Source: an uncultured Opitutales bacterium (GTDB lineage Bacteria > Verrucomicrobiota > Verrucomicrobiia > Opitutales > UBA9783). From it: a stretch of DNA of 64,000 bases. A program made the translations under genes and the position numbers. The stretch is from positions 339,422 through 403,421 of the forward strand of contig CAKUSQ010000001.1 of NCBI GenBank assembly GCA_934691225.1, in the 5' to 3' direction. Below are positions 14,784 through 15,367 of this stretch, piece by piece (within the stretch, counting starts at the first letter, position 1; every line of letters begins with the position of its first letter). A model generated the notes under the pieces. The model was not told the origin of the DNA. It worked only from the letters and a program-made list of their open reading frames with translations, and made no database searches.

Positions 14784-15367
14784 ATGAATAAGAGTTTTTG
14801 TTATTTACTTGTGGGGTTTTTATTTTTTCAAAATGTTAATATTATTTCAGCAGCGAGATATTCCCCTCACAAACCAAGTACTGCCACGTTTAATAATAAT
14901 CACAATAAAAAAAAACCAAAACCTTTTAACAAAAAAAACATACTTTACCACGTGAACAAATTGATGAATTTTCGGATTTCAACATTGAATCAATAAACAA
15001 ACAGAAAACACTAATCGATGCACTATATGCTAGCATTGATTATTTAAAAAAGATTTCTCAAATTATTTGTGATAAAGCTCGAGAATATTGGAACAAACGT
15101 GATGATAAACTCATTGCATCCGAATTCGCGGTTCTCGGTGGAGACATAGAAAACACAATAATCTTTATAAATAATTGCATTTGTTTCCTTAGTATAAATA
15201 TTAACGAGCTTGCAAGCCTTAGCGCGGAAGACATGGCAGATTGGATAGAAAAAATCAACACACATGTGTTAGATTTAAATCAAAAAAACATCTTACAAAT
15301 AAACATAGAAAAGCATAGTGAAAAAATTAGGGAAAGCGCAAAAAATCTGCGAGATCTATTGTTGTAA
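14784..15367 (+). pseudogene. Secreted protein gene split at a poly(A) tract (frame-disrupted, slippage-dependent or phase-variable)
   Basis: The 70-aa ORF (14784-14996) has a signal peptide. It crosses A9 (14907-14915) and A8 (14931-14938) tracts. The -1 frame is open from 14930 to the stop at 15365-15367 (146 codons) and has no start codon before 15233. Confidence 0.6.

What the first reader, a model, noticed from the sequence alone, without database searches (positions are those of the whole stretch)
14784..15367. Secreted-protein gene interrupted at an A8 tract: candidate slippage-dependent or phase-variable gene
A 70-codon ORF with a clear signal peptide runs through A9 (14907-14915) and A8 (14931-14938) tracts and stops at 14996. 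The -1 frame opens at 14930 and stays open for 146 codons to 15367, with no start codon until 15233. A stop-free run of that length is very unlikely by chance in DNA this AT-rich, and it translates to ordinary helical protein sequence (HTLPREQIDEFSDFNIESINKQKTLIDALYASIDYLKK...). One extra A in the A8 tract would fuse both parts into a ~194-aa secreted protein. In the zero frame the tract also reads A_AAA_AAC, a classic -1 slippery heptamer. The options are a fresh pseudogene, a homopolymer sequencing error, a slipped-strand ON/OFF switch, transcriptional slippage rescue (described for poly(A) tracts in AT-rich endosymbionts), or programmed -1 frameshifting.
Basis: seen in the sequence. Interest (0 to 1): 0.58.

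Follow-up and report, generated by a model that had tools for sequence, protein, structure and literature searches.

The report
Frameshifted secreted-protein gene, likely young pseudogene
A small secreted-protein gene of an uncultured human-gut Opitutales bacterium has really lost one A from a run of nine, which splits the gene; this is most likely an ordinary recent gene inactivation, not a programmed switch.

Summary
A 70-codon signal-peptide ORF (14784-14996) runs through A9 and A8 tracts, and the -1 frame is open from 14930 to 15367. Adding one A to the A8 tract gives a 194-aa protein.

Intact 194-aa orthologues (93-95% identical) exist in sister strains. Their tract is A9, or an interrupted A6GAA.

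A8 is not an assembly error. Eleven further public metagenome contigs of the window's own, nearly clonal lineage all carry A8. Thirteen other homopolymers of 8 nt or more in the window are in frame.

No ON (A9) version of this lineage is present in a 15-billion-protein collection. There is no RNA structure 3' of the A_AAA_AAC heptamer. The tract and the two-frame layout are not conserved.

The gene is also lost elsewhere. One sister lineage has cleanly deleted it together with its neighbour. More distant homologues carry an in-frame TAG, or a T6-to-T5 frameshift.

Best reading: a young loss-of-function allele at a mutational hot spot in a dispensable, fast-evolving secreted four-helix protein of unknown function. 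Low-level slippage rescue or slow reversion cannot be excluded without reads or cDNA. Interest is low.

The parts
14784..14996 (+). 5' fragment of the broken gene. It comprises the start codon, a Sec-type signal peptide (residues 1 to about 24), a Lys/Asn-rich linker, then 19 out-of-frame codons and a premature TAA at 14994-14996.
   Evidence: Residues 1-51 align to the intact orthologues P0001 and P0002. The exact 70-aa product is also called on three other public contigs.
14931..14938 (+). A8 tract, the site of the 1-nt deletion. It is A9 in sister strains, AAAAAAGAA in another sister lineage, and A6 in the distant homologue.
   Evidence: Alignment A1. Tract census: window plus 11 contigs carry A8, and L001-3 carry A9. 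L022 carries A9, and L016 and L020 carry A6GAA. L004.
14933..14939 (+). A_AAA_AAC heptamer in the zero frame. It is a formal -1 slippery motif, but has no stimulator.
   Evidence: The sequence is shown. The 106 nt from 14925 fold to only -5 kcal/mol, weaker than shuffles (z = +0.9). No SD-like sequence lies upstream (read).
14930..15367 (+). 3' part of the gene in the -1 frame: 145 codons plus a stop. It encodes the conserved four-helix domain (residues about 61-193 of the restored protein).
   Evidence: invariant motifs IASE.AV..G, INNCI.FL and SAEDM.DW. The AF2 model built from 9 sequences gives pLDDT 85-97 over helices 61-104, 109-137, 141-167 and 178-193.
14907..14915 (+). In-frame A9 tract. 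It was created in this lineage by a G>A change at 14907 (E42K). It cannot be the shift site, because TAA 14927-14929 closes the -1 frame after it.
14749..14777 (+). Promoter-like TGGACT-17-TATATT with a TG extension, ending 7 nt before the ATG. This is weak evidence only.
   Evidence: The number of such matches in the region is no higher than in shuffles.
15394..16434 (+). Neighbouring gene, 26 nt downstream and probably co-transcribed. It encodes a 346-aa Q/N-rich protein with a signal peptide and no family match. It is lost together with the 194-aa gene in one sister lineage.
14748..16438 (+). Two-gene cassette that is replaced by about 40 bp in sister lineage L027.
   Evidence: blastn of L027 against the window: L027 1-4593 matches window 21030-16439, and L027 4634-8600 matches window 14747-10785. 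The gene calls of L027 show trmB directly followed by the beta-CASP gene.

Best explanation
This is a real, heritable 1-nt deletion (A9 to A8) in a poly(A) run. The run encodes the Lys-rich linker of a clade-restricted secreted protein, which consists of a signal peptide, a disordered linker and a four-helix bundle, and whose function is unknown.

**Consequence of the deletion.** Translation from the normal start ends after 70 codons. It yields a signal peptide plus linker with no functional domain. The conserved domain has no start codon of its own before codon 151.

**Status of the allele.** It is fixed in one nearly clonal strain lineage of an uncultured human-gut Opitutales bacterium. I read it as a young loss-of-function allele (an incipient pseudogene) of a dispensable gene, made at a mutational hot spot by replication slippage.

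**Residual expression.** Any full-length protein still made would come only from unprogrammed, low-level RNA-polymerase or ribosome slippage. Work in E. coli suggests at most a few per cent.

**Shown versus inferred.**
- Shown: the deletion, its reproducibility, the intact orthologues, the absence of recoding signals, and independent losses in relatives.
- Inferred: that the allele is non-functional, and that it arose by replication slippage.
For: 1. **Intact orthologues.** Single-frame 194-aa orthologues cover both halves (P0001, 93% identity, 100% coverage). Their DNA differs at the junction only by A9 instead of A8.
2. **Reproducibility.** A8 is present in 11 other contigs. They come from SPAdes, MEGAHIT and Logan assemblies and from several projects. 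They are 99.9-100% identical to the window. The eight contigs that span the whole gene are identical across 14784-15367.
3. **Other homopolymers.** Thirteen other homopolymers of 8 nt or more in the window lie in frame in intact ORFs.
4. **No ON allele.** The restored protein of this lineage is absent from the collection of about 15 billion proteins. No member of the P0001 cluster carries this lineage's signature residues.
5. **Tract not conserved.** It is A6GAA (KKER) in L016 and L020, and A4CA6 in L004.
6. **Gene lost repeatedly.**
   - The cassette is deleted in L027.
   - TGG has become TAG at the conserved W in L109, L110, L111 and L114.
   - A T6-to-T5 frameshift is present in L112 and L113.
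7. **Weakly constrained gene.** dN/dS is 0.36-2.1 between haplotypes. The flanking genes give 0.017-0.06.
8. **Derived change at a conserved site.** The only lineage-specific amino-acid change downstream of the shift, L115F, hits a position that is L in all 9 other family members.
9. **No frameshift stimulator**.
10. **Literature limits on slippage.**
   - E. coli RNA polymerase shows no detectable slippage below A8 (PMC6260861).
   - Heptamers without a stimulator reach only 2-10 times a 0.055% background in E. coli. The AAC-to-AAA re-pairing is poorly tolerated (PMC4066793).
Against: - The downstream frame is still completely open. On the window's terminal branch the gene has 5 synonymous and 4 non-synonymous changes (3:1 downstream of the shift). 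That is fewer non-synonymous changes than neutrality predicts (binomial P about 0.016 and 0.024). So there is no sign of decay yet. This fits a very recent event, but it equally fits continued selection on a product rescued by slippage.
- The lineage is nearly clonal (0.1% divergence or less), so its age gives no power to separate these two cases.
- A8 is right at the threshold where bacterial RNA-polymerase slippage begins.
- Consensus assemblies cannot reveal minority A9 subpopulations.
- Some of the 11 assemblies may derive from the same underlying samples.
Confidence: 0.66

Rival explanations
1. Reversible phase variation. The A8/A9 tract acts as a slipped-strand ON/OFF switch for a secreted, possibly host-exposed protein. 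The window's lineage was simply sampled in the OFF state.
For: The break lies exactly in a homopolymer, and A9 (ON) and A8 (OFF) both exist among close relatives. The protein is secreted, fast-evolving and repeatedly lost. That is the type of gene that is often phase-variable. The organism carries a type III secretion system, which suggests contact with host cells.
Against: - Tract length follows lineage perfectly. The window and 11 contigs of its lineage are all A8, and 4 of 4 assemblies of the A9 haplotypes are A9.
- No ON allele of this lineage exists in public assemblies.
- The tract is short for a contingency locus. It is interrupted (A6GAA) in one sister lineage and absent in distant homologues.
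- Other lineages inactivated the gene irreversibly, by deletion or a nonsense codon.
Confidence: 0.13
2. Recoding rescue maintained by selection. Either RNA polymerase inserts an extra A at the A8 run, or ribosomes shift -1 on A_AAA_AAC. A set fraction of full-length secreted protein is still made, and the frameshift serves as a dosage setting.
For: - The heptamer is in the right frame, and a -1 shift gives a product of exactly orthologue length.
- The downstream frame is intact, and the window branch shows an excess of synonymous changes.
- Slippage rescue of poly(A) frameshifts is documented: an A11 run in Citrobacter tssM (PMC4256274), 9-nt runs (PMC5009743), and an exponential rise of transcript insertions with run length (PMC5574713).
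- IS1 uses A_AAA_AAC without a known stimulator (PMC4066793).
Against: - No downstream structure is predicted, and no upstream SD-like element is visible.
- Every intact homologue, close or distant, encodes the protein in one frame. The slippery run is not conserved.
- A8 gives barely detectable slippage with E. coli RNA polymerase (PMC6260861).
- Traverse and Ochman found no transcript error that restored a reading frame in Buchnera (PMC5574713).
- The gene is dispensable in relatives.
- The lineage is too young for 'maintenance' to be demonstrated.
Confidence: 0.12
3. Sequencing or assembly artefact. The true genome has A9 and the gene is intact.
For: Homopolymers are classic sites of indel errors, and sister strains have A9.
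Against: - A8 recurs in 11 other assemblies made with different assemblers and in different projects.
- The same kinds of assemblies resolve A9 in sister strains.
- They also resolve the adjacent in-frame A9 at 14907-14915.
- Thirteen other 8-9-nt runs in the window are in frame.
Confidence: 0.02

Closest known systems
Homopolymer-indel pseudogenes of AT-rich bacterial genomes, such as the poly(A) frameshifts of Buchnera and Blochmannia (reviewed in PMC5009743; transcript data in PMC5574713)
   Same: A single-base indel in a poly(A) run inside a Lys-rich coding stretch splits a gene that is otherwise intact. Orthologues are in one frame. The genome is AT-rich (about 35% GC) and probably small.
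   Different: The host is a gut Opitutales MAG lineage, not an insect endosymbiont. The run is only A8. In this 64-kb window it is the only broken homopolymer out of 15. Persistence of the frameshift over evolutionary time has not been shown.
Phase-variable contingency genes with homopolymeric tracts (Campylobacter, Helicobacter, Neisseria and Haemophilus; from general knowledge)
   Same: The tract lies within the 5' coding region of a gene for an exported protein, and ON and OFF lengths both occur among relatives.
   Different: There is no within-lineage length polymorphism and the tract is not conserved. It is short, and irreversible losses occur in relatives.
Programmed transcriptional slippage: Thermus dnaX (9-nt run), Shigella spa13 and Citrobacter tssM (A11) (PMC5009743, PMC4256274)
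   Same: An A-run lies at the junction of two frames, and one extra A in the mRNA would give the full-length protein.
   Different: Those cases have runs of 9 nt or more, and the two-frame arrangement is conserved and functionally required. Here the run is A8 and the arrangement is specific to one clonal lineage.
-1 programmed ribosomal frameshifting on A_AAA_AAC (IS1) or A_AAA_AAG (dnaX, IS3 family) (PMC4066793)
   Same: A heptamer of the X_XXY_YYZ type lies in the zero frame, with the -1 frame open downstream.
   Different: There is no stimulatory hairpin or pseudoknot and no SD-like element. Nothing is conserved across relatives. The zero-frame product has no plausible function of its own.

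Membership tests
Frameshift pseudogene / loss-of-function allele at a homopolymer | Close relatives encode the same protein in a single uninterrupted frame | tested here: met
   P0001, P0014, P0015 and P0017 are 194 aa (93-95% identity). P0002, P0018 and P0020 are 189-191 aa. P0021 is 230 aa.
Frameshift pseudogene / loss-of-function allele at a homopolymer | The frame break maps to an indel relative to those relatives | tested here: met
   The only gap in the 662-column DNA alignment is one A in the tract.
Frameshift pseudogene / loss-of-function allele at a homopolymer | The indel is in the genome and is not an artefact | tested here: met
   Eleven other assemblies carry A8. Raw reads were not available.
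Frameshift pseudogene / loss-of-function allele at a homopolymer | Relaxed selection or further decay after the break | tested here: inconclusive
   The window branch has 5 synonymous and 4 non-synonymous changes and no further stops or indels. There is one change, L115F, at a near-invariant site. The lineage is too young to be informative.
Frameshift pseudogene / loss-of-function allele at a homopolymer | No full-length product is made | not testable with these tools
   This needs cDNA or proteomics.
Phase-variable contingency locus (slipped-strand mispairing) | A simple repeat in the coding region or promoter whose length sets ON or OFF | tested here: met
   A8 gives OFF and A9 gives ON.
Phase-variable contingency locus (slipped-strand mispairing) | Tract length varies among closely related isolates or populations | tested here: not met
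   The window and 11 contigs of its lineage are all A8, and the 4 contigs of the A9 haplotypes are all A9. No ON allele of this lineage is in the collection.
Phase-variable contingency locus (slipped-strand mispairing) | The repeat is conserved as a repeat across lineages | tested here: not met
   A6GAA in L016 and L020, and A4CA6 in L004.
Phase-variable contingency locus (slipped-strand mispairing) | Length heterogeneity within a population, at read level | not testable with these tools
   Only consensus contigs are available.
Programmed transcriptional slippage | A run of about 9 or more A or T | tested here: not met
   The run at the shift site is A8. The threshold data come from PMC5009743 and PMC6260861.
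Programmed transcriptional slippage | The two-frame arrangement is conserved in relatives | tested here: not met
   All intact relatives are in one frame.
Programmed transcriptional slippage | Heterogeneous mRNA population at the run | not testable with these tools
   This needs cDNA sequencing.
-1 programmed ribosomal frameshifting | X_XXY_YYZ heptamer in the zero frame, with the -1 frame open | tested here: met
   A_AAA_AAC at 14933-14939, with the -1 frame open to 15367.
-1 programmed ribosomal frameshifting | Stimulatory element: a 3' hairpin or pseudoknot, or a 5' SD-like sequence | tested here: not met
   MFE is -5 kcal/mol, z = +0.9, and 171 of 200 shuffles fold at least as well. No GGAGG-like sequence lies upstream.
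-1 programmed ribosomal frameshifting | Heptamer and frame overlap conserved among relatives | tested here: not met

The most novel reading that the evidence does not exclude
The frameshift, the cassette deletion, the nonsense codon and the second homopolymer frameshift are not neutral decay. Instead they are repeated, selected silencing of a host-exposed secreted factor in a human-gut Opitutales clade that carries a type III secretion system. In the window's lineage, the A8 allele would keep a low slippage-derived trickle of protein, or the option of reverting to A9.
Probability: 0.1. Interest if true: 0.5.

Novelty: new member of a known kind. Interest (0 to 1): 0.2.

Why it matters
The main value is for annotation. 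The two ORF pieces should be annotated as one frameshifted gene, a pseudogene candidate, and not as a 70-aa gene plus an empty gap. They should not be 'corrected' to A9 either.

The case also shows how public metagenome contigs can settle the 'error or real, fixed or variable' question for a homopolymer frameshift without raw reads.

There is modest biological interest. A tiny, clade-restricted family of secreted four-helix proteins is being lost again and again in gut Opitutales strains, by frameshift, nonsense codon and deletion. These strains also carry a type III secretion system. That marks the cassette as a variable and possibly host-interaction locus.

Tried and rejected
**Function of the protein**
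- Pfam scans of the restored protein and of the 346-aa neighbour gave no family.
- A PDB sequence-profile search gave only E >= 0.05 hits of the Lys-rich linker to eL6.
- Foldseek against the PDB, using the better AF2 model, gave no hit with E <= 0.001 and no TM-score above 0.5, only generic helical bundles. Function therefore stays unknown.
- The first AF2 model, from 3 sequences, was too poor to use (pLDDT 51.5).

**Searches for more relatives**
- The genome-contig scan for the family found nothing.
- tblastn against about 80 MnmG-anchored loci of related Opitutales and Puniceicoccales found no homologue.
- A JGI metagenome pattern scan for any tract length found nothing.
- The exhaustive HMM search of 1.84 billion representatives found only five true family clusters. 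The three hits to much longer proteins are multi-stretch matches that I took to be low-complexity matches and did not inspect.

**Analyses that did not work**
- dN/dS for the 346-aa neighbour (0.98) is rejected as invalid. The two sequences differ by many indels and were compared without alignment.

**Ideas rejected**
- The A9 tract at 14907-14915 cannot be the shift site, because TAA 14927-14929 closes the -1 frame after it.
- Independent translation of the downstream part is unlikely. The first start codon in that frame, at 15233, would give only 44 aa.
- Island insertion at the adjacent tmRNA gene is not supported. The cassette lies at the 5' side of ssrA and is ancestral, being present at the same place in the distant L004.

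Full report
**1. What is in the sequence**

- An ATG ORF runs from 14784 to 14996 (70 aa). It starts with a Sec-type signal peptide, MNKSFCYLLVGFLFFQNVNIISA|A, whose hydrophobic core reaches a Kyte-Doolittle value of 2.5.
- It passes through an A9 run (14907-14915) and an A8 run (14931-14938).
- The -1 frame is closed by TAA at 14927-14929. It is then open from 14930 to 15367, which is 145 codons plus a stop.
- That frame has no ATG, GTG or TTG before 15233.
- The zero frame reads A_AAA_AAC at 14933-14939.

Run length alone is not strong evidence. 42 of 200 mononucleotide shuffles of the window contain an equally long open run somewhere.

Homology is what counts. Inserting one A gives a 194-aa protein. 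It matches a 194-aa protein end to end (P0001: 93% identity, 100% coverage, E = 9e-113). It also matches a 191-aa protein (P0002, 49% identity).

**2. Is A8 real?**

The three metagenome contigs that encode P0001 align to the window at about 95-97% identity. Within the gene they differ in length at only one column: they have A9 where the window has A8.

I used the exact TrmB protein of the window and the exact 70-aa ORF as handles. With them I retrieved 11 further public contigs of the window's own lineage. They come from Hadza gut assemblies, several other ENA assemblies and Logan run assemblies, built with SPAdes, MEGAHIT and Logan.
- All 11 carry A8.
- They are 99.9-100% identical to the window over 0.5-8.6 kb.
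- The eight that span the whole gene are identical to it across 14784-15367.
- The window has 13 other homopolymers of 8-9 nt, and all sit in frame inside intact ORFs.

An assembly or sequencing artefact is therefore very unlikely. One caveat is that some assemblies may share underlying samples. Another is that this lineage is essentially one clone. The contigs confirm the sequence, but they are not independent evolutionary events.

**3. Variation among relatives**

Variants of TrmB at 90% identity or more led to sister lineages at about 95% nucleotide identity. Their states at this locus are listed below.

| Lineage or contigs | State of the gene |
|---|---|
| L001-3 and L022 | A9, intact 194-aa gene |
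| L016 and L020 (proteins P0014, P0015) | Tract interrupted, AACAAAAAAGAACGT (KKER), gene intact |
| L027 | Window 14748-16438 replaced by about 40 bp: this gene and the neighbouring 346-aa secreted-protein gene are gone |
| L004 (49% protein identity) | Cassette at the same place next to trmB-mnmG-mnmE; tract reads A4CA6 |

Because the distant L004 carries the cassette in the same position, the cassette is ancestral and its absence in L027 is a deletion.

The restored (ON) protein of the window lineage is absent from the collection of about 15 billion proteins. None of the five members of the P0001 cluster carries this lineage's signature residues. Tract length therefore tracks lineage perfectly, and the run itself is not a conserved feature.

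**4. Other independent inactivations**

An exhaustive profile search of 1.84 billion representatives found only a handful of family members. Two of them are 43-52-aa ORFs that start at the internal Met of the SAEDMADW motif. Their contigs belong to a more distant species in which the gene lies next to tuf-secE-nusG, and they show two further ways of breaking the gene.
- L109, L110, L111 and L114 have an in-frame TAG in place of the conserved Trp (AKNY*DKADG).
- L112 and L113 have a T6-to-T5 deletion in ELAVFCGD.

A nonsense codon and a whole-cassette deletion cannot be undone by slippage. The family is evidently dispensable and is being lost repeatedly.

**5. Selection**

Between the window and L001, the gene has 13 non-synonymous and 8 synonymous differences (dN/dS 0.37). 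The flanking beta-CASP RNase and MATE genes give 0.028 and 0.017. Among the intact haplotypes dN/dS is 0.75-2.1, although the counts are small. This is a fast-evolving, weakly constrained gene, and most changes fall in the linker and first helix.

Changes unique to the window's branch number 5 synonymous and 4 non-synonymous. Downstream of the shift the ratio is 3:1. That is fewer non-synonymous changes than neutrality predicts (P about 0.02).

Two readings follow. Either the frameshift is young relative to that branch, or the product is still under selection. The lineage's diversity of 0.1% or less gives no power to decide between them.

The single downstream replacement, L115F, hits a position that is Leu in all nine other family members.

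**6. Recoding signals**

The 106 nt from 14925 fold to only -5 kcal/mol, and 171 of 200 shuffles fold at least as well. No SD-like element is visible upstream.

The literature, which rests largely on E. coli, points the same way.
- Heptamers without stimulators give only 2-10 times a background of about 0.055%. The AAC-to-AAA re-pairing is poorly tolerated by bacterial ribosomes (PMC4066793).
- E. coli RNA polymerase shows no detectable slippage below A8, and only about 5-10% rescue on T7/T8 runs (PMC6260861).
- Efficient programmed cases use runs of 9-11 nt (PMC5009743; PMC4256274).
- Transcript insertions rise exponentially with run length, but no frame-restoring transcript error was seen in Buchnera (PMC5574713).

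A small unprogrammed trickle of full-length product is therefore plausible. A programmed mechanism is not supported.

**7. The protein and the organism**

With nine family sequences, AlphaFold2 gives the following:
- a disordered region, residues about 25-60, which contains the shift site at residues 49-52;
- a confident four-helix bundle at residues 61-193, with pLDDT mostly 85-97.

The five models do vary (mean pLDDT 74 down to 42). No Pfam family, PDB sequence or PDB fold matches significantly, so function is unknown.

The closest MnmG genes in the GTDB representative genomes are 69-80% identical. They belong to uncultured Opitutales and Puniceicoccales (Verrucomicrobiota) MAGs from human, Hadza and termite guts. 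None of those loci has a homologue of this gene.

**8. Verdict**

The frame break is a genuine 1-nt deletion, fixed in this lineage, in a poly(A) run of a real gene.
- **Most likely (about 0.66):** an ordinary young loss-of-function allele of a dispensable secreted-protein gene.
- **Phase variation (about 0.13):** remains possible, because consensus contigs cannot show minority alleles.
- **Selected slippage rescue (about 0.12):** remains possible, because no transcripts were available.
- **Artefact (about 0.02):** very unlikely.

This is a new instance of a well-known kind of event, and interest is low.

Noticed in passing
window 51553-61044 (+): A non-flagellar type III secretion gene cluster in what appears to be a human-gut Opitutales MAG lineage. 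Its genes are:
- YscD-like (51553-52920)
- HrpB1/TPR (53472-53924)
- YscI (53902-54336)
- YscJ (54338-55105)
- YscL (55739-56374)
- YscN ATPase (56379-57704)
- YscO (57701-58189)
- HpaP/YscP-like (58116-59204)
- YscQ (59201-60259)
- YscR (60262-61044)

This suggests direct interaction with eukaryotic cells.
   Followed up: partly
window 14297-14676 (-): A tmRNA (ssrA) gene with tag peptide ENNVVKFPSASLAVAA. It fills most of the apparent 592-bp gap between the beta-CASP RNase gene and the frameshifted gene.
   Followed up: yes
window ~20000-20600: GC skew changes sign here, from about -0.17 to about +0.2. The position lies between mnmE (18877-20232, -) and the folE-folB fusion gene (20573-21484, +). 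This is probably the replication origin.
   Followed up: no
window 15394-16434 (+): A 346-aa protein with a signal peptide that is very Q/N-rich and repetitive, with no family match. It is 358 aa in the L016 and L020 lineage. It is heavily rearranged by indels relative to L022. In L004 it may be split into 110-aa and 175-aa ORFs. In L027 it is deleted together with the 194-aa gene.
   Followed up: partly
L109-L114 (homologous gene next to tuf-secE-nusG): In a more distant relative the homologous gene is independently broken. Four contigs carry TGG-to-TAG at the conserved Trp, and two carry a T6-to-T5 frameshift. The gene downstream of it also varies in called length: 177, 240 and 255 aa.
   Followed up: partly
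L006, about 1044-1055 (window 19977-20007, mnmE): One contig of the same strain lineage differs by a short rearranged or indel stretch inside mnmE. As a result the gene was called as 82 aa plus 363 aa. Nearby SNPs cluster at window 19941-19989 in L007 and L008.
   Followed up: no
window 14907: A lineage-specific G>A change (E42K) lengthened an A8 run to the in-frame A9 at 14907-14915. It lies only 16 nt upstream of the tract that lost an A. This lineage therefore carries two long A runs in the same Lys-rich linker.
   Followed up: yes
window 41984-42511 (+): An ORF of about 171 aa with strong matches to MafB19-like and cytidine/deoxycytidylate deaminase domains (E = 5e-27 and 3e-24). It is probably a tRNA-adenosine (TadA-like) or nucleotide deaminase, and was not examined further.
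   Followed up: no
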